Origin: Escherichia coli
GTDB taxonomy: Bacteria > Pseudomonadota > Gammaproteobacteria > Enterobacterales > Enterobacteriaceae
Strand: one strand, 5' to 3'
DNA: 64,000 bases
Assembly (NCBI RefSeq): GCF_044324875.1
Contig: NZ_CP172185.1
Below are positions 1 to 48,506 of the stretch, piece after piece; position 1 is the first letter of the stretch, and each line of letters starts with the position of its first letter. The notes beneath the pieces were generated by a model. It was not told the DNA's origin, searched no databases, and was given only the letters and a program-made list of their open reading frames with translations. The position numbers and the translations under genes were made by a program.

Positions 1-1
1 C

Positions 2-541
2 ATTTTCTAAAGGCAAAAAGCCTTTGCGTGGAGAGGCAGATGTCATGGCGTCGCAGTGTTCCAGCACCAGTTTGCACGGCCAGTCCCAACTGGCGATTTC
101 TTTTAACGAGCGGGCAAAAGCATCCGTCGCTTGTATAACATTAGGATTCGTTGCTAACGGTGCAGCCTGGATCTCCAGTGCGAGAACTTTATTGGCCTGC
201 AATGAGTTGATTTTATTTAATAAGTGTCGATAGTACGCCACGCAGGCCTTGCGTTGTTCTTCATCGCTGGAGGCGAGACCAAAGCCGTTGTTTTCGCTGC
301 GGCGACGCATGGTTTCCATCACTGCGGTGACGACAAATTTCCAGCTCTCTGGCGTATGACGGAGTAACCATTGATCGCCAAGAGGGTGGAAATTTTCCAG
401 GCAGGGTTGTTCCAGACCGCGAATATCAGGGGTATCTGATAATTGTCGCCAGAATTCCTTCTCTTCCTCTTCACTTCTTTGATGAAAAGAAGGTGCACAG
501 GGATACGCACCGATAATATAACCGGCATTATTCGCTTTCAT
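2..541 (-). CDS. hypothetical protein, N-terminal 180 codons only (3' end lies beyond window start)
   Basis: Own translation: ATG at 541..539, open to the window edge with no stop; begins [34 protein letters not shown]. Sits 23 bp downstream of yiaL on the same strand. Hydrophilic, so not the TRAP small permease (yiaM) expected here from the K-12 layout. Not in the ORF track because it has no stop. Confidence 0.5.
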
Positions 542-564
542 TTTGTGCTCCAGTAATAACTTTT

Positions 565-1032
<468 letters not shown>

Positions 1033-1040
1033 TTATCTCC

Positions 1041-2039
1041 TTATAACGCCTGGATTTTTGCCCACACGCTGTCATCAACCGTAATGCCGTTACGGCGGTT
1101 TTCGGCCAGCAGGGTAGTAAATTCGTGGCCGGGTAATCGAATGGCCTGATTTTCGTCAGCGCGTTCAGCGGTGGTAACGTAATCCATGATGCGTTGCAGC
1201 TTGGCATCGCGGGTGGCACCGTCGATAAGCTTGTCCACTTCAATGGCAATAAAAATTTGTGAAATGCCGTATTCGTCGCTGTTGTCCTGGGTGACTTCGG
1301 CAACCGATGCGCCGTCAGAAAGGAGAGTGGCGATCATATCCAGCACAATCGACATGCCCGAACCTTTCCAGTAACCCATCGGCAAAATTCGGCGATTTTT
1401 CTCGATAACGCCAGGTTCTTTGGTCAAATTACCCTCATCATCAAAGCCACCATCTACCGGGAGCTGACGACCTGCCAGACGGTTAACTTCTAACATGCCG
1501 TAGGAAAACATCGACATCGACATATCGACAATGGTGATTGGGGTAGAAGGAATGGCGACGATCAGCGGGTTAGTGCCGATGCGACACTCTTTTGCGCCCC
1601 ACGGCGGCATTACGGCAATGGAGTTGGTCCAGCAAATACCAATATAGCCTTTTTCCGCCGCTTGCCAGCCGTAGCTACCACCGCGCATCCAGTGGTTGGC
1701 ATTACGTAGTGCCACCAGACCAATACCGTGATCGGCAGCCAGTTCAATGGCGCGATCCATCATCTTTTTCGCCGTCAGATTGCCGATCGAACGCTGGGCG
1801 TCCCACTGTTCAATTGCGCCAAGGCTGGTTATACGTTTGGGTTGGGCATCAGGAATGATATCGCCGTTTTCCAGCTGTTGAATGAAACGAGGGAAACGAT
1901 TAACGCCGTGAGAATAAACGCCGGATTCGGTGGTGCGGGCGAACATCTCTGCACAGGCGTCAGCCGTTTCACTGTCAACGCCGCGTGAAATTAAGACTCG
2001 ATTAAAGGCTGCTTTTAACTGCTCAAATGTCACTTTCAT
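1041..2039 (-). CDS. yiaK: 2,3-diketo-L-gulonate reductase
   Basis: 332-aa [36 protein letters not shown]..., recognised as YiaK; divergent from yiaJ. Confidence 0.9.
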
Positions 2040-2240
2040 CCCTGGCTTCCTTGTTTTTTTTGATCGCTTTTTTGGCTTAAAATTTCAATATGCGAAATCT
2101 GATTTCAAATATATCGATCGCTTTTTAACAAAGCAATCTGATTGATGAATTTCAAAAAACTTAAAAATCAAGTGGTTATAAATTATCTGTCGAGATCGTG
2201 AACTACGACACACTTTGCGCTACCATCAGGACGCGACAAA

Positions 2241-3089
2241 ATGGGGAAAGAAGTGATGGGAAAAAAAGAGAACGAGATGGCGCAGGCAAAAGAGCGTCCA
2301 GCCGGAAGCCAGAGTCTGTTTCGCGGGTTGATGCTGATTGAGATTTTGAGCAACTATCCAAACGGTTGTCCGTTGGCGCATCTTTCGGAGCTGGCTGGTT
2401 TAAATAAGAGTACCGTCCATCGCTTATTGCAGGGATTACAGTCCTGCGGCTATGTGACCACCGCGCCCGCCGCAGGGAGTTACCGCCTGACTACCAAATT
2501 CATTGCCGTCGGGCAGAAGGCGCTGTCTTCGCTGAATATCATTCATATCGCCGCTCCGCATCTTGAGGCACTGAACATCGCCACTGGTGAAACCATTAAC
2601 TTCTCCAGCCGCGAAGACGATCACGCTATTTTGATTTATAAGCTGGAACCCACAACCGGGATGCTGCGAACTCGTGCCTATATAGGCCAGCATATGCCGC
2701 TCTACTGTTCCGCAATGGGCAAGATCTACATGGCGTTTGGTCACCCGGACTACGTGAAGTCATACTGGGAAAGCCATCAGCAAGAGATCCAGCCGTTAAC
2801 CCGCAATACCATTACCGAGCTGCCTGCGATGTTCGACGAACTGGCGCACATTCGTGAAAGCGGAGCGGCGATGGACAGAGAAGAAAACGAACTCGGCGTC
2901 TCCTGTATTGCTGTTCCGGTGTTTGATATTCATGGGCGGGTGCCGTACGCCGTGTCGATTTCTCTTTCGACATCACGTCTGAAACAGGTGGGGGAGAAAA
3001 ATCTCCTGAAACCACTGCGTGAAACCGCGCAGGCTATTTCTAATGAACTGGGATTTACTGTCAGGGACGACCAGGGCGCGATCACATAA
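2241..3089 (+). CDS. yiaJ: IclR-family transcriptional repressor of the yiaK operon
   Basis: 282-aa ORF with an IclR-type HTH (…LNKSTVHRLLQGL…) and effector domain; divergent from yiaK. Confidence 0.9.
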   Translation: MGKEVMGKKENEMAQAKERPAGSQSLFRGLMLIEILSNYPNGCPLAHLSELAGLNKSTVHRLLQGLQSCGYVTTAPAAGSYRLTTKFIAVGQKALSSLNIIHIAAPHLEALNIATGETINFSSREDDHAILIYKLEPTTGMLRTRAYIGQHMPLYCSAMGKIYMAFGHPDYVKSYWESHQQEIQPLTRNTITELPAMFDELAHIRESGAAMDREENELGVSCIAVPVFDIHGRVPYAVSISLSTSRLKQVGEKNLLKPLRETAQAISNELGFTVRDDQGAIT

Positions 3090-3190
3090 CGCTTTAGACA
3101 AGTGCCAAAACTTTAACATTTCCTTCGTTGGATCAAAGCAGTAGAGACGCGCTCTCTGGCACTCTGCTGTTTTAGTGCAAAGGAGTGATC

Positions 3191-3675
3191 ATGAACCGGT
3201 TTATTATTGCGGATGCGACGAAATGTATCGGTTGCCGTACCTGTGAAGTGGCTTGCGCAGTGTCGCATCAGGAGAATCAGGATTGCGCTGCGTTGTCACC
3301 AGACGAGTTTATTTCCCGTATTCGTGTTATTAAAGACCACAGCTGGACCACGGCTGGACCACGGCTGTAGCCTGCCATCAATGTGAAGATGCACCGTGCG
3401 CGAATGTCTGCCCTGTTGACGCGATAAGCCGCGAACATGGGCATATTTTCGTTGAACAATCACGTTGCATTGGCTGTAAAAGCTGTATGCTGGCTTGCCC
3501 GTTTGGTGCGATGGAGGTCGTTTCTTCGCGCAAAAAGGCGAGGGCGATTAAGTGCGATCTGTGCTGGCATCGGGCGACGGGACCGGCCTGTGTTGAAGCC
3601 TGCCCGACAAAGGCGTTGCAGTGCATGGATGTCGAGAAAGTGCAGCGACATCGGCTACGGCAGCAGCCTGTTTGA
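3191..3675 (+). pseudogene. ysaA: 4Fe-4S ferredoxin-type protein YsaA, frameshifted by an 11-bp tandem duplication
   Basis: RBS aggag then ATG 3191. Frame 2 (MNRFIIADATKCIGCRTCEVACAVSHQ…) stops at TAG 3368..3370; the C-terminal part continues in frame 1 to 3675 (…CPFGAMEVVSSRKKARAIKCDLCWHRATGPACVEACPTKALQC…). ctggaccacgg occurs twice in tandem at 3343..3364; deleting one copy gives a 157-codon ORF. Confidence 0.8.
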
Positions 3676-3714
3676 AACGTTTTTCCGGCGTTTCTCAACG
3701 CAGGGATAGTGCGC

Positions 3715-3830
3715 TTTGTTTATGCCGGATGCGGCTAAAACGCCTTATCCGGCCTACAAATTCTACCAAATTCAATATATTGCAGAAATCATGTAGGCCT
3801 GATAAGCGTAGCGCATCAGGCAATTTTTAG
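3715..3830. repeat. REP/BIME palindromic repeat cluster
   Basis: Inverted GC-rich palindromes of REP type (gccggatgcggc…, ccttatccggcctac…, gtaggcctgataagcg…cgcatcaggc) between the convergent ysaA and avtA. Confidence 0.7.
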
Positions 3831-5080
3831 TGACTTTCAGCCCAGGCTCTTTCTATCTCTTCTGCCAGAATCTTCACACCCGCCTCAATTTTCTCCGGCT
3901 CCGGCACGTAGTTCATGCGCATACATTGATGTGTATGTGGCCACGGTTTATCCAGCCCTGGGAAGAAGTTGTGCCCCGGCACCATCAGCACGCCCCGTGC
4001 TTTCAGGCGCTGGTAGAGCTGCTCGGTCGTAATTGGCAAATCCTTAAACCATAGCCAGAGGAAAATGGCTCCTTCGGGTTTATGAATCAGGCAGCGATCT
4101 TCCGGTAAATAGCGGCGAATGATAGCGATAGTTTCCTGAACACGCTGGTAGTAAAACGGTTTGATGACTGTTTCAGACAGGCGCAGCAGATCGTTACGCT
4201 TAATCATTTCACACATCATCGCCGGACCAATACCGCCAGGTGCCAGGCTGATAATGCCGTTCATATTGGTGATGGCGGTGATGATTTTTTCATTGGCGAT
4301 GATAATGCCGCAGCGGGAGCCAGGTAGCCCCAGCTTGGAAAGACTCATGCACAGTACGATATTCGGATTCCACAGCGGGCGCGCTTCGCTGAAGATGATA
4401 CCCGGGAACGGGACGCCATAAGCGTTATCAATCACCAGCGGAATGCCGTGTTGATTCGCCAGCGCGTCAAGCTTCAGCAACTCTTCGTCAGTAATCACAT
4501 TGCCTGTTGGATTCGTCGGCCGGGAGACGCAAATCATCCCGGTTTCTTCGCCAATATGCAGATGCTCAAAATCGACGTGGTATTTAAACTGGCCTTCCGG
4601 CAGCAGTTCAATATTCGGACGTGCAGAGACAAACAGATCTTCTTCCAGTCCGGCGTCAGCGTATCCAATGTATTCCGGTGCCAGCGGAAACAGCACTTTT
4701 TTGACCCGACCGTCGGCACGGCGTCCGGCGAACAGATTAAATAAGTAGAAAAACGCGCTCTGGCTGCCGTTTGTTAGTGCAATATTCTGTGGTTCGATAT
4801 CCCAACCCAACTTCTCGCGCAGCATTCCGGCAAGCAGTGTGAGTAGCTCCGTTTTCCCCTGTGGACCGTCGTAATTGCACAGTGCATCAGTCGCTTTGCC
4901 ACTTTCCAGCATGTCGGTCAGTAGCGTCTGGAAGTAGTCCTGCATTTCCGGGATCTGCGCTGGATTACCGCCGCCGAGCATAATCGCGCCAGGCGTGCGT
5001 AAACCGTCGTTCAGATCTTCCATCAGCAGCGTAATGCCGGAGTGGCGGGTAAATTTGTCACCAAAAAGGGAGAATGTCAT
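3827..5080 (-). CDS. avtA: valine-pyruvate aminotransferase
   Basis: ORF 3827..5185; the internal Met at 5080 gives the 417-aa protein MTFSLFGDKFTRHSGITLLMEDLNDGLRTPGAIMLGGGNPAQIP… recognised as AvtA. Confidence 0.9.
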   Translation of the reverse strand: MTFSLFGDKFTRHSGITLLMEDLNDGLRTPGAIMLGGGNPAQIPEMQDYFQTLLTDMLESGKATDALCNYDGPQGKTELLTLLAGMLREKLGWDIEPQNIALTNGSQSAFFYLFNLFAGRRADGRVKKVLFPLAPEYIGYADAGLEEDLFVSARPNIELLPEGQFKYHVDFEHLHIGEETGMICVSRPTNPTGNVITDEELLKLDALANQHGIPLVIDNAYGVPFPGIIFSEARPLWNPNIVLCMSLSKLGLPGSRCGIIIANEKIITAITNMNGIISLAPGGIGPAMMCEMIKRNDLLRLSETVIKPFYYQRVQETIAIIRRYLPEDRCLIHKPEGAIFLWLWFKDLPITTEQLYQRLKARGVLMVPGHNFFPGLDKPWPHTHQCMRMNYVPEPEKIEAGVKILAEEIERAWAESH

Positions 5081-22420: not shown

Positions 22421-22673
22421 TCGCTAAATAATAGAGCAACCTTTAATAATCTTCTGCTGAATAAAGATTGTCTCATATATTAATTTTATGAGATTTTTTT
22501 AGGATTATATCAAGGAGAAGAAACGAACTTATTAAGCTAGAATAGCCACGGGTGCTTGAGACTGTTTGTCTCAGGTATTCACCGAAAGGCAGACAGAGAA
22601 AAGCCCCACCTGACTATAAATCAAAGTGTACTGCACCCATTTTGTTGGACGATGAAATGGAATAGCCCCTGAT

Positions 22674-23195
22674 ATGTCAAAGCCAAAATACCCTTTTGAA
22701 AAGCGCCTTGAAGTCGTGAATCACTACTTCACTACTGATGATGGTTACAGGATCATCTCGGCACGTTTTGGTGTCCCCCGAACCCAGGTCAGGACATGGG
22801 TTGCCCTCTATGAAAAACATGGAGAAAAAGGTTTAATTCCCAAACCTAAAGGTGTTAGTGCTGATCCTGAGTTGCGTATTAAGGTCGTGAAAGCTGTGAT
22901 CGAGCAGCACATGTCCCTTAATCAGGCTGCTGCTCACTTTATGCTTGCTGGTAGTGGTTCTGTAGCCAGGTGGCTGAAGGTTTATGAAGAGCGCGGAGAA
23001 GCTGGTTTACGCGCGCTCAAGATTGGCACCAAAAGAAACATTGCAATATCAGTTGATCCAGAAAAAGCGGCATCAGCATTGGAGCTGTCAAAAGACCGAC
23101 GCATTGAGGATCTTGAAAGGCAAGTTCGATTTCTTGAAACGCGGCTTGTGTATCTAAAAAAGCTGAAAGCCTTAGCTCATCCCACGAAAAAGTGA
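22674..23195 (+). CDS. insJ: IS150 transposase OrfA
   Basis: 173-aa ORF MSKPKYPFEKRLEVVNHYFTTDDGYRIISARFGVPRTQVRTW…, recognised as IS150 InsJ. Confidence 0.92.
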   Translation: MSKPKYPFEKRLEVVNHYFTTDDGYRIISARFGVPRTQVRTWVALYEKHGEKGLIPKPKGVSADPELRIKVVKAVIEQHMSLNQAAAHFMLAGSGSVARWLKVYEERGEAGLRALKIGTKRNIAISVDPEKAASALELSKDRRIEDLERQVRFLETRLVYLKKLKALAHPTKK

Positions 23196-24043
23196 AAGTA
23201 CTCAACGAGCTAAGGCAGTTTTATCCTCTTGATGAGCTTCTCAGGGCTGCGGAGATACCGCGCAGTACGTTTTATTACCATCTAAAGGCTCTCAGCAAGC
23301 CTGACAAGTATGCGGACGTTAAAAAGCGTATTGGTGAGATTTATCATGAGAATAGAGGCCGATACGGATACCGTAGGGTAACGCTGTCTCTTCATCGAGA
23401 AGGGAAACAGATTAACCATAAAGCTGTTCAGCGCCTGATGGGAACCCTCTCACTTAAGGCAGCGATTAAGGTCAAGCGATACCGCTCTTACAGAGGAGAG
23501 GTAGGGCAAACCGCCCCCAATGTTCTCCAAAGAGATTTCAAGGCTACGCGGCCAAACGAGAAGTGGGTTACCGATGTTACTGAATTTGCAGTCAATGGGC
23601 GCAAGCTGTATTTGTCTCCAGTAATAGATCTCTTCAACAACGAAGTTATTTCTTACAGCCTTTCGGAAAGACCAGTGATGAACATGGTCGAGAATATGCT
23701 CGATCAGGCATTCAAAAAGCTTAATCCTCACGAGCATCCTGTTCTGCACTCTGACCAGGGATGGCAGTATCGTATGAGAAGATATCAAAATATCCTTAAA
23801 GAATATGGTATTAAACAAAGCATGTCCAGAAAAGGCAATTGTCTGGATAATGCTGTGGTGGAGTGTTTCTTTGGAACCTTAAAATCGGAGTGTTTTTATC
23901 TTGATGAGTTCAGTAATATAAGCGAACTGAAGGATGCTGTTACGGAATATATTGAATACTACAACAGCAGAAGAATTAGCCTGAAATTAAAAGGTCTGAC
24001 TCCAATTGAATATCGGAATCAGACCTATATGCCTCGTGTTTAA
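23192..24043 (+). CDS. insK: IS150 transposase OrfB (DDE domain; joined to OrfA by -1 frameshift)
   Basis: 283-aa ORF overlapping insJ by 4 bp; …[10 protein letters not shown]…[20 protein letters not shown]… integrase core. Confidence 0.92.
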
Positions 24044-24144
24044 CTGTCCAACTTTTTGGGGTCAGTACAAAGTGAGGCCCCTCTATGCATAGACACCATA
24101 AGGTTAGCCTCTTACTCGTTGGAAATCAACACAGGAGGCTGGGA

Positions 24145-32050: not shown

Positions 32051-33287
32051 ACTTTCCCTCGCTATGTACCCGATCGTAAAAATTTCAGCAGCTTTTCTTG
32101 ACGCATCGGTGAAAAAGTCAATATTTAATACAGGGCTACTATGCCCGATATCCTTCATACAATGACAATAATATTGCCGAATTCGGCTCTTCCCTGGAGT
32201 CGTGTTAATGATCATAAAAAAAAGCGGTGGTCGCTGGCAGCTAAGCCTGCTGGTGAGCGTGGTAATCAGTGCCTTTTTTCTCAACACAGCTTACGCCTGG
32301 CAACAAGAATATATCGTTGATACGCAACCCGGACATTCCACAGAGCGTTACACCTGGGATAGCGATCATCAACCTGATTACAACGATATTTTGTCGCAAC
32401 GTATTCAAAGTAGCCAAAGGGCGCTGGGACTGGAAGTCAATCTGGCGGAAGAAACCCCTGTGGATGTGACCAGCAGTATGAGTATGGGCTGGAATTTTCC
32501 TTTATATGAACAGGTTACAACCGGCCCGGTCGCGGCATTACATTACGATGGCACAACCACCTCGATGTATAACGAGTTTGGCGACAGTACTACCACGCTA
32601 GCCGATCCGTTATGGCATGCCAGCGTGAGTACCTTAGGCTGGCGTGTTGACTCCCGGCTTGGCGATCTCCGACCCTGGGCGCAAATCAGCTATAACCAGC
32701 AATTTGGCGAGAATATCTGGAAGGCGCAATCAGGCCTGAGCCGGATGACGGCGACAATGAACTGCACCCCAAATGTTGGACATAATCTGACATCTGAAGG
32801 TGCAGTTTATGAAACATTCATTTGAAGTAAAACTTGCCGCTGTAAATCACTACCTGGCTGGTCATGCAGGCATCATTTCTACGGCAAAACTCTTTCAACT
32901 TTCTCACACCAGCCTCTCACACTGGATTAATCTTTTTCTTCTTCACGGTCCTCGGGCACTGGATTGCAGACACAAGCGTAGCTATTCTCCTGAAGATAAA
33001 CTTTGCGTGGTTCTTTATGCTCTCGGGCATTCTGAGTCTCTACCCCGGGTAGCTGCCCGGTTTAACATTCCCAGCCACAACACGGTTAAAAACTGGATAA
33101 AAGGCTACCGCAAATCTGGTAATGAGGCCTTTATCAGGCGCTGGAAGGAGAAAAGCATGACCCGTTCTGATGATACCCATGAAAACGAGGCAAACATGAC
33201 GCCGGAAGAGATGAAGAATGAGCTGCGTTATCTTCGCGCAGAAAATGCATATCTGAAAGCCATGCAGGAGCATCTCCTGGAAAAAAA

Positions 33288-34189
<902 letters not shown>

Positions 34190-34569
34190 CAAACCAGAAC
34201 GGCAACTGGCTGGATGTCACCGTAGGCGCTGATATGTTGCTCAATCAAAATATTGCTGCCTATGCTGCGCTATCTCAGGCAGAAAATACCACTAACAATA
34301 GCGACTATCTGTATACGATGGGGGTTAGTGCCAGATTTTAACGTTATAGATACAATTGAAACCATTGAATAACAACAGTTGTGGCGATAGTGGGTGCTAA
34401 CTTACTAAATAATAAATTTGGTGAATAATTGTCGAGTCATTCATTCCTGAACTAATGCATTTCATTCCGTTCTGATGGCATTTCATGCCGTTTTTCCCCA
34501 GGCATAAAGTGCACTTCGTTATGGTTGTCAGCAGAGATTTTTCCTTTTTATTACTGCAGGAATACTGCC

Positions 34570-47432: not shown

Positions 47433-47540
47433 ATGACGCTCGCAGAGCTGGGCATGGCCTTCTGGCATGATTTAGCGGCTCCGGTCATTGCTGGCATTCT
47501 TGCCAGCATGATCGTGAACTGGCTGAATAAGCGGAAGTAA
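47433..47540 (+). CDS. ldrD: Ldr type I toxin peptide (35 aa), copy 1
   Basis: MTLAELGMAFWHDLAAPVIAGILASMIVNWLNKRK; LdrD-type sequence. Confidence 0.8.
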   Translation: MTLAELGMAFWHDLAAPVIAGILASMIVNWLNKRK

Positions 47541-47915
47541 CGTGTCAGACGGGCGTCAGGCTGCCGTAATGGCAATTTGCGCCCGGACCAGGCCGCAGGG
47601 ATAAAACTCTGCGGCCTTTTTCGTAAGAAAAATGCAACGGTTGCAAGCGGATAATATTCTGCTGAATGCACAGCACAGAGTGAAGAAGTGATGGATTTCG
47701 ACGAACAAAAATGGCCGTAGAATCAGCGGCAAGCCGGAAGGGTTCCGGTGAGGCGCAATGTTGCGGGGGCTTAATCCCTGGTGGCATTGGTTGCTGGAGA
47801 GAGAAAACCCCCGCACGTTGCAGGTATGCACCTGACAACACCACGGGGGCCATTCTTGCATCTAGACCATTCAAGAATAGCCGCGAAACGTTGTCATTAC
47901 AACTCAGGCGGCTAT

Positions 47916-48023
47916 ATGACGCTCGCAGAACTGGGCATGGCCTTCTGGCATGATTTAGCGGCTCCGGTCATTGCTGGCATTCTTGCCAGCATGATCGTGA
48001 ACTGGCTGAACAAGCGGAAGTAA
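47916..48023 (+). CDS. Ldr type I toxin peptide (35 aa), copy 2
   Basis: Peptide identical to copy 1, 483 bp downstream. Confidence 0.8.
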   Translation: MTLAELGMAFWHDLAAPVIAGILASMIVNWLNKRK

Positions 48024-48398
48024 CGTGTCAGACGGGCGTCAGGCTGCCGTAATGGCAATTTGCGCCCGGACCAGGCCGCAGAGGTGAAACTCTGCGGCCT
48101 TTTTCGTAAGAAAAATGCAACGGCTGCAAGCGGATAATATTCTGCGGAATGCGCAGCACAGAGTGAAGAAGTGATGGATTTCGGAACAGAAAAACAGTCG
48201 TAGAATCAGCGGCAAGCCGGAAGGGTTCCGGTGAGGCGCAATGTTGCGGGGGCTTAATCCCTGGTGGCATTGGTTGCTGGAGAGAGAAAACCCCCGCACG
48301 TTGCAGGTATTCACCTGACAATATGACGGGGGCCATTCTTGAACCTACACAACTCAAGAATAGCCGCGAAACGTTGTCATTACAACACTGGCGGCTAT

Positions 48399-48506
48399 AT
48401 GACGCTCGCAGAGCTGGGCATGGCCTTCTGGCATGATTTAGCGGCTCCGGTCATTGCTGGCATTCTTGCCAGCATGATCGTGAACTGGCTGAATAAGCGG
48501 AAGTAA
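48399..48506 (+). CDS. Ldr type I toxin peptide (35 aa), copy 3
   Basis: Peptide identical to copy 1 (own translation; not listed in the ORF track because the upstream frame is short). Confidence 0.78.
   Translation: MTLAELGMAFWHDLAAPVIAGILASMIVNWLNKRK

What the first reader, a model, noticed from the sequence alone, without database searches (positions are those of the whole stretch)
3343..3364. ysaA is inactivated by a perfect 11-bp tandem duplication
Seen: ctggaccacgg occurs twice back-to-back (3343..3353 and 3354..3364) inside ysaA. Upstream the gene is in frame 2 and stops at TAG 3368..3370; the conserved Cys-rich C-terminal part (two further 4Fe-4S motifs) continues in frame 1 to 3675. 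Deleting one copy yields a single 157-codon ferredoxin-type ORF. Inference: a recent slipped-strand or unequal-crossover duplication; such short tandem duplications revert at high frequency, so this could act as an on/off switch rather than permanent loss.
Basis: seen in the sequence. Interest (0 to 1): 0.5.

Follow-up and report, generated by a model that had tools for sequence, protein, structure and literature searches.

The report
ysaA frameshift pseudogene, 11-bp duplication
A small, non-essential iron-sulfur electron-carrier gene (ysaA) of one E. coli clone is broken by an 11-base tandem duplication that every sampled member of the clone inherits unchanged; this is an ordinary pseudogene, with no sign that it works as a genetic switch.

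Summary
The reading frame then stops at TAG 3368-3370 after 59 codons. Removing one copy restores a 157-aa protein identical to the common E. coli YsaA allele WP_001296520.1.

The wild type already holds an imperfect two-copy repeat (GACCACaGCTG GACCACgGCTG). The event is therefore a 2-to-3 copy expansion, as replication slippage would produce.

It is a real allele. The same junction, with 100% identical flanks, is in independent NCBI and Logan assemblies, and the exact 59-aa product is on 89 contigs. None of 5,426 complete RefSeq E. coli genomes has it. It is also absent from the GTDB species representatives and the JGI metagenomes.

The on/off switch idea is not supported:
- The duplication looks fixed in the clone.
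- No other copy-number alleles (-11, +22, +33) are on record.
- Duplications this short are reported to revert at about 1e-5 or less.
- ysaA is a HydN paralogue whose deletion gives only a mild phenotype.

One detail needs correcting: three Cys motifs are lost, not two.

Verdict: a lineage-specific, probably near-neutral loss of function. Low interest.

The parts
3191..3675 (+). ysaA pseudogene: the whole former coding region, 485 nt (474 nt plus the 11-nt insertion)
   Evidence: tblastn of K-12 YsaA splits into q1-55 (3191-3355) and q49-157 (3346-3672) in two frames. Synteny is yiaJ-ysaA-avtA, as in K-12.
3180..3185 (+). Shine-Dalgarno-like AAGGAG, 5 nt before the ATG at 3191
   Evidence: Read from the sequence. 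Its function is inferred.
3191..3370 (+). Truncated ORF of 59 codons plus TAG. It keeps only the first CxxCxxCxxxC motif and ends in 4 foreign residues (GPRL).
   Evidence: The exact product is in NCBI as SRB15941.1 and on 89 contigs.
3335..3367 (+). Three-copy 11-nt tandem repeat: GACCACAGCTG / GACCACGGCTG / GACCACGGCTG. The wild type has the first two copies only.
   Evidence: TRF, the repeat finder, and the alignment with wild-type alleles.
3354..3364 (+). Any 11-nt register within 3342-3367 is equivalent.
   Evidence: An 11-nt gap against 18KM2445, L007, L009 and K-12. The perfect period-11 run is 3342-3367.
3368..3370 (+). Premature TAG stop created by the frameshift
3367..3675 (+). Out-of-frame C-terminal remnant (V56 to V157 of native YsaA) holding Cys motifs 2-4. 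It has no ATG, GTG or TTG in this frame before ATG 3487.
   Evidence: Translation. The ORF list shows this frame opening only at 3487 (62 aa).

Best explanation
ysaA in this E. coli clone is a loss-of-function pseudogene.

How it arose (inferred): a single replication-slippage event expanded a pre-existing imperfect two-copy 11-nt repeat (GACCACaGCTG GACCACgGCTG) to three copies, adding 11 nt.

What it does to the product: the frame shifts after Ala55 and translation stops 4 codons later. The 59-aa product keeps one of the four Cys motifs of this HycB/HydN-type polyferredoxin. That it cannot assemble its [4Fe-4S] clusters is inferred from ferredoxin architecture. The downstream 102 codons have no usable start.

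Why it persists (inferred): YsaA is a HydN paralogue with a mild deletion phenotype. The loss is therefore probably neutral or nearly so, and it was carried to fixation as the clone expanded.

Shown here: the lesion, its absence from other E. coli, and its inheritance in many independent assemblies.
Inferred: the slippage mechanism and the neutrality.
For: Lesion and repair in silico.

Pre-existing repeat and flanking GCTG microhomology in the wild-type allele of this lineage.

Absent from 5,426 complete RefSeq E. coli, from GTDB species representatives and from JGI metagenomes.

Identical junction with 100% identical flanks in GCA_958308375.1, GCA_031910025.1, SRR21141798, SRR17262565 and SRR31072984. 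The exact 59-aa product is on 89 contigs.

The clone-marker proteins YiaJ, YiaK and DUF4862 occur in 195-202 blocks. In the contig-size bins below 20 kb, the block counts for YiaJ and for truncated YsaA are identical (3, 8, 5, 24).

The repaired protein is a four-motif ferredoxin closest to HydN and HycB.

Deleting ysaA lowers benzyl-viologen-linked FDH-H activity to 57% and has no effect on H2 production. HydN is partly redundant (PMC6004506).

ysaA is independently lost in S. sonnei lineages 2 and 3 (PMC12795559) and disrupted in S. Typhimurium DT99 (PMC3853940).
Against: Raw reads were not available, so a minority of single-copy revertants within cultures cannot be excluded.

Neutrality is inferred from K-12 phenotypes, not measured in this clone.

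Low-level read-through of bacterial pseudogenes has been reported (PMC9122581, abstract only). I saw no slippery heptamer near the site by reading the sequence, but ran no formal scan.

Fixation in the clone rests on block counts and on the 24 longest contigs per look-up, not on a full census.
Confidence: 0.82

Rival explanations
1. Reversible on/off switch. The three-copy repeat loses and regains a unit by slippage often enough to make a mixed ysaA-ON/OFF population, as spontaneous tandem duplications do in pneumococcal capsule genes.
For: A 26-nt perfect period-11 tract is a better substrate for precise deletion than a point frameshift. Precise loss of 11 nt restores the wild-type protein exactly. 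Reversible duplications are documented in cap3A, cap8E and tts (Waite 2001 and 2003, as cited in PMC4022640 and PMC4243769).
Against: Only one state is seen in every dup-bearing assembly I could read (L001-L004, L006/L008/L012), and the 24 longest contigs in each look-up with the clone's YiaJ or YiaK allele include no near-identical relative with an intact 157-aa ysaA. No -11, +22 or +33 alleles are on record. There are only three copies. PMC4022640 puts reversion of insertions of 9 bp or less at about 1e-5 at most. ysaA is a cytoplasmic redox protein with a mild phenotype, not a surface or restriction-modification type contingency gene.
Confidence: 0.05
2. Sequencing or assembly artefact: the extra 11-mer is not in the real genome.
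For: None beyond the general possibility. The allele is absent from all complete RefSeq genomes.
Against: The identical junction occurs in at least five independent samples assembled by different pipelines, both NCBI submissions and Logan. The exact truncated product is on 89 contigs. An 11-nt non-homopolymer insertion is not a typical platform error (general knowledge).
Confidence: 0.01
3. Selected, adaptive inactivation: loss of YsaA benefits this clone in its niche, for example by rerouting formate-derived electrons, and helped it expand.
For: The clone is well sampled, with about 200 index blocks for its marker proteins. ysaA has been lost independently in S. sonnei lineages 2 and 3 and in S. 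Typhimurium DT99.
Against: Those other losses occur in genomes undergoing general gene decay, and in S. sonnei as part of a 22-kb deletion. Here there is a single event with no convergence inside E. coli. No growth or H2 phenotype is known for the ysaA deletion. Hitch-hiking explains fixation equally well.
Confidence: 0.12

Closest known systems
E. coli K-12 YsaA (b3573), a HydN paralogue and HycB/HydN-type ferredoxin-like protein (Pinske 2018, PMC6004506)
   Same: Same locus and synteny, yiaJ(plaR)-ysaA-avtA. The repaired protein is 157 aa with four Cys motifs. It is about 96-97% identical to K-12 YsaA and 100% identical to WP_001296520.1. Its best family matches are HydN and HycB.
   Different: Here the gene is frameshifted after codon 55 and can only give a 59-aa fragment.
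Slipped-strand frameshifts at short tandem repeats, classically the lacI CTGG x3 hot spot (Farabaugh et al. 1978; cited from my own knowledge, not checked here)
   Same: Gain of one unit at a pre-existing short tandem repeat inside a coding region, giving a frameshift.
   Different: The unit is 11 nt and the ancestral repeat is imperfect (10/11) with only two copies. There is no evidence of a hot spot, since a single event is seen across the databases.
Reversible spontaneous tandem duplications in the pneumococcal capsule genes cap3A, cap8E and tts (Waite et al. 2001, 2003, as cited in PMC4022640 and PMC4243769)
   Same: An in-ORF tandem duplication that inactivates the gene and whose precise loss would restore it.
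   Different: In pneumococci many different duplications arise and revert in culture and drive a visible phase change. Here one fixed duplication is inherited by a whole clone with no observed revertant.
Other natural losses of ysaA: the 22-kb deletion in S. sonnei lineages 2 and 3 (PMC12795559) and the disruption in S. Typhimurium DT99 (PMC3853940)
   Same: Independent loss of the same dispensable gene in enterobacterial lineages.
   Different: Different lesions, a large deletion and a disruption listed at position 64 of the gene. Those hosts are undergoing broader gene decay. In this window only ysaA and yhjY are broken among about 57 genes shared with K-12.

Membership tests
YsaA orthologue (HycB/HydN-type four-cluster ferredoxin) | Position between yiaJ(plaR) and avtA | tested here: met
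   The window has yiaJ at 2241-3089, ysaA at 3191-3675 and avtA at 3827-5080 (minus strand). K-12 has the same order.
YsaA orthologue (HycB/HydN-type four-cluster ferredoxin) | Sequence identity to annotated YsaA over the full length | tested here: met
   After the 11 nt are removed, the sequence is 100% identical to WP_001296520.1. The NCBIfam HydN equivalog scores 217.7 bits, below its 260-bit cutoff, as expected for a paralogue rather than HydN itself.
YsaA orthologue (HycB/HydN-type four-cluster ferredoxin) | Four Cys motifs in one polypeptide (functional protein) | tested here: not met
   The encoded product stops at residue 59 with only motif 1. Motifs 2-4 are out of frame. It is a pseudogene of the family, not a functional member.
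Frameshift pseudogene | An indel whose length is not a multiple of 3, relative to intact orthologues, causing a premature stop | tested here: met
   An 11-nt insertion against 5,423 genomes and a TAG 4 codons downstream.
Frameshift pseudogene | Heritable lesion rather than an assembly error | tested here: met
   Same junction in at least five independent samples, and the product on 89 contigs.
Simple-sequence-repeat contingency locus (phase variation by slipped-strand mispairing) | Repeat copy number varies among closely related isolates | tested here: not met
   All dup-bearing assemblies I read carry exactly three copies. No near-identical relative with an intact ysaA turned up in the look-ups. 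No -11, +22 or +33 alleles are on record.
Simple-sequence-repeat contingency locus (phase variation by slipped-strand mispairing) | A long tract of many repeat units giving switching rates of about 1e-2 to 1e-5 | tested here: not met
   Only three units, the first imperfect. The rate itself was not measured.
Simple-sequence-repeat contingency locus (phase variation by slipped-strand mispairing) | Mixed ON/OFF molecules within one culture | not testable with these tools
   This needs raw reads or amplicon sequencing. Only consensus assemblies were available.
Reversible tandem-duplication phase variation (pneumococcal cap3A type) | An in-ORF tandem duplication whose precise excision restores the gene | tested here: met
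   In silico excision gives the wild-type protein.
Reversible tandem-duplication phase variation (pneumococcal cap3A type) | Revertants, or multiple independent duplications, observed in the population | tested here: not met
   One duplication only, and no revertant among the 24 longest contigs per look-up that share the clone's YiaJ or YiaK allele. No other copy-number alleles. This is a partial census.

The most novel reading that the evidence does not exclude
The three-copy 11-mer is a low-frequency reversible switch. Rare precise loss of one unit would restore YsaA in a subpopulation and give the clone bet-hedging over an auxiliary route for electrons from formate dehydrogenase H. That would be an E. 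coli counterpart of the duplication-based phase variation of pneumococcal capsule genes, in a metabolic gene.
Probability: 0.04. Interest if true: 0.45.

Novelty: new member of a known kind. Interest (0 to 1): 0.12.

Why it matters
It matters little beyond annotation. The gene should be labelled a pseudogene in this clone, and the 33-nt junction CAGCTGGACCACGGCTGGACCACGGCTGTAGCC is a convenient clone-specific marker. It is absent from 5,426 complete E. coli genomes, from GTDB species representatives and from JGI metagenomes.

It adds one more natural knockout of ysaA, consistent with the gene being dispensable and partly redundant with hydN. It is also a clean example of how a synonymous-level allele difference (10/11 against 9/11 repeat identity, plus GCTG microhomology) can make a coding sequence more prone to slippage.

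If the switch reading were true it would be of moderate interest, but the evidence here points the other way.

Tried and rejected
1. Assembly artefact. Rejected because independent assemblies carry the identical junction.

2. Recurrent hot spot. I looked up the predicted products of the -11 (two forms), +22 and +33 alleles, of +11 on an A33T background, and of a GTG-start version. None is on record.

3. A junction 33-mer scan of the GTDB species representatives and the JGI metagenomes gave 0 matches.

4. Revertants inside the clone. Look-ups with the clone's YiaK, DUF4862 and YiaJ proteins found only two relatives with intact ysaA. Both are different lineages, L007 at 99.37% and L009 at 97.3%. 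The tool reads only the 24 longest contigs and merges similar places, so this is not a full census.

5. Naming the lineage. The window is 97.7% identical to K-12 and at most 98.3-98.6% identical to any complete RefSeq E. coli over two 25-kb stretches. I could not assign a sequence type or phylogroup. Shigella seemed unlikely, since the 64 kb holds only two IS elements and the source label is E. coli.

6. Split-gene or recoding rescue. The native downstream frame has no start before ATG 3487. I saw no slippery heptamer by reading the sequence.

7. The promoter and terminator consensus scan of 3050-3850 found nothing.

Full report
**Observation.** Read directly, 3343-3353 and 3354-3364 are both ctggaccacgg. 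The perfect period-11 tract is a little longer, 3342-3367 (26 nt), so the register of the duplication is arbitrary. TRF and the repeat finder both report three 11-mers at 3335-3367: GACCACAGCTG, GACCACGGCTG, GACCACGGCTG. This is the longest perfect tandem duplication in the window. A period-11 perfect duplication appeared 4 times in 200 Markov-2 simulations, about 0.02 expected per window.

**Effect on the gene.** ysaA starts at ATG 3191, preceded by AAGGAG at 3180-3185. It now ends at TAG 3368-3370 after 59 codons (MNRF...SWTTA followed by the foreign residues GPRL). From 3361 another frame reads TAVACHQCEDAPCANVCP...CIGCKSCMLACP...CDLCWHRATGPACVEACP... to TGA 3673-3675. In this frame no ATG, GTG or TTG occurs before ATG 3487, so the remnant cannot be expressed as a meaningful second polypeptide. 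Removing 11 nt gives 474 nt, a 157-aa protein identical to WP_001296520.1, the annotated YsaA of strain 18KM2445.

**What the protein is.**
- Pfam finds 4Fe-4S dicluster domains (Fer4_11 and others).
- The best NCBIfam family is HydN. It scores 217.7 bits, below the 260-bit equivalog cutoff, as expected for a paralogue.
- The closest solved structure is HycB of the formate hydrogenlyase complex, 7z0s_B.
- Pinske 2018 (PMC6004506) shows that YsaA is the closest paralogue of HydN and interacts with FDH-H, HycB and HydN. Deleting ysaA lowers benzyl-viologen-linked FDH-H activity to 57% and leaves H2 production unchanged.
- The 59-aa fragment keeps only motif 1. From the known way Cys motifs share clusters in polyferredoxins, I infer that it is non-functional.

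**Real or artefact.** None of the 5,423 complete RefSeq E. coli genomes that hold ysaA has the extra 11 nt. The best hit is 97.8% identical over 501 nt, with 490 nt in the record, and its only difference from the window is the 11-nt gap. With an 80-nt query the best genomes align as two pieces spanning 69 nt. The exact 59-aa product, however, is on record (NCBI SRB15941.1, 'electron transport protein YsaA [Escherichia coli]') on 89 contigs. Loci from GCA_958308375.1, SRR21141798, SRR17262565, SRR31072984 and GCA_031910025.1 carry the identical junction. Their flanks show 0-1 mismatch over 3.8-8.4 kb. The duplication is therefore a real, clonally inherited allele. The junction 33-mer is absent from the GTDB species representatives and from the JGI metagenomes.

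**The clone.**
- The window is E. coli: 97.7% DNA identity to K-12 and about 99% protein identity.
- It is no closer than 98.3-98.6% to any complete RefSeq genome over two 25-kb stretches. I could not name the lineage.
- The clone's exact YiaJ, YiaK and DUF4862 proteins occur in 197, 195 and 202 index blocks. The truncated YsaA occurs in 92.
- In the contig-size bins below 20 kb the YiaJ and truncated-YsaA counts are identical (3, 8, 5, 24).
- The deficit lies in the 20-200 kb bins. I attribute it to NCBI submissions there not translating the pseudogene, because the NCBI contig I could read (GCA_031910025.1; L006, L008, L012) carries no ysaA product call.
- All 24 longest contigs with the clone's YiaJ share one neighbour set without a 157-aa ysaA.
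- The nearest relatives with intact ysaA are other lineages: L007 at 99.37% over 5.4 kb and L009 at 97.3%.
- As far as this partial census goes, the duplication is fixed in the clone.

**Mechanism of origin (inferred).** The wild-type allele of this lineage group (18KM2445, L007) reads GACCACAGCTG GACCACGGCTG. That is a 10/11 tandem repeat, with GCTG on both sides of the unit that was duplicated. K-12 and L009 read GACCACTGCTG GACCACGGCAG, which is 9/11 and lacks the GCTG pair. Replication slippage on the better repeat, giving 2 to 3 copies, is the simplest origin. Unequal exchange cannot be excluded and would leave the same product.

**Switch or pseudogene.**
- A contingency locus should show several copy-number states. 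The predicted products of the -11 (two forms), +22 and +33 alleles, and of +11 on another background, are absent from about 15 billion proteins. The intact allele is on at least 1,000 contigs.
There, many different duplications arise and revert in culture. PMC4022640 puts the expected reversion for insertions of at most 9 bp at about 1e-5 at most.
- Three copies of an 11-mer in a cytoplasmic redox gene with a mild knockout phenotype, held constant across a widely sampled clone, do not fit that picture.
- Reversion at some low rate remains physically possible and cannot be measured from consensus assemblies.

**Context of loss.**
- ysaA is deleted with 22 kb of neighbours in S. sonnei lineages 2 and 3 (PMC12795559).
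- It is listed among the disrupted genes of S. Typhimurium DT99 (PMC3853940).
- A 121-aa partial product annotated in S. flexneri may be a further case.
- In this window, of about 57 genes shared with K-12, only ysaA and yhjY are broken. yhjY is split by an IS3-family element. The clone therefore shows no sign of wholesale decay in this region.
- I consider near-neutral loss with hitch-hiking the best explanation (0.82). Selected loss is a minor rival (0.12), the switch is unlikely (0.05) and an artefact is excluded (0.01).

**Verdict.** The inactivation and its slippage origin are supported. 'Recent' is acceptable, since there is no secondary decay and the event is confined to one clone. The on/off switch is unsupported. 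This is a new allele of a well-known kind, a frameshift pseudogene made by short tandem duplication, and of low interest.

Noticed in passing
window 32208-34338 (IS at about 32758-34188): yhjY is split by an IS3-family insertion sequence of about 1.43 kb. K-12 YhjY residues 1-183 map to 32208-32756 and residues 183-232 to 34189-34338. The two ORFs in between (32800-33330 and 33435-34157) match the NCBIfam IS3 transposase model. They are 28% and 51% identical to the IS150 proteins InsJ and InsK.
   Followed up: partly
L001 1431-2351 (window 1-541 holds its 3' part): An extra 306-aa DUF4862 gene sits between yiaL and yiaM, and yiaL is a divergent allele (87.7% to K-12). The gene is absent from K-12 and from the closest complete genomes, whose alignments to the window start at 635. 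It matches no NCBIfam model. In L009 the flanks are only 97.3% identical to the window, yet the 1.8 kb covering this gene adds no mismatch, which suggests recent transfer or recombination of that segment.
   Followed up: partly
window 47433-48986: There are four tandem ldr-type small toxin copies (LdrD-like, 91-97% identical, spaced about 483 nt apart). K-12 has a single ldrD/rdlD at this locus.
   Followed up: no
window 52983-53735: bcsQ is an intact 250-codon ORF here. In K-12 it is annotated as a pseudogene.
   Followed up: no
window 22627-24071: IS150 (insJ/insK, 99% identical to the K-12 copy) lies next to hokA at what appears to be the same site as in K-12. The insertion is therefore shared across distant E. 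coli lineages.
   Followed up: no
window about 3700-3830: The intergenic region between ysaA and avtA holds REP-like palindromic sequence (gcctgatgcgctacgcttatcaggcctaca type). Three Logan contigs (L002-L004) all end at window 3817-3818, inside it.
   Followed up: no
proteins P0003 and P0004: A 121-aa 'partial' YsaA ending ...KCDLC recurs on 19 and 5 contigs, including one labelled S. flexneri (WP_032322859.1). This hints at a recurrent break at codon 121 in those genomes, perhaps an IS or a contig end. I did not examine the DNA.
   Followed up: no
L002 960-1241: In SRR21141798 the yiaM (DctQ) call is 93 aa instead of 155 aa. This is a possible further lesion or an assembly error in one member of the clone.
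   Followed up: no
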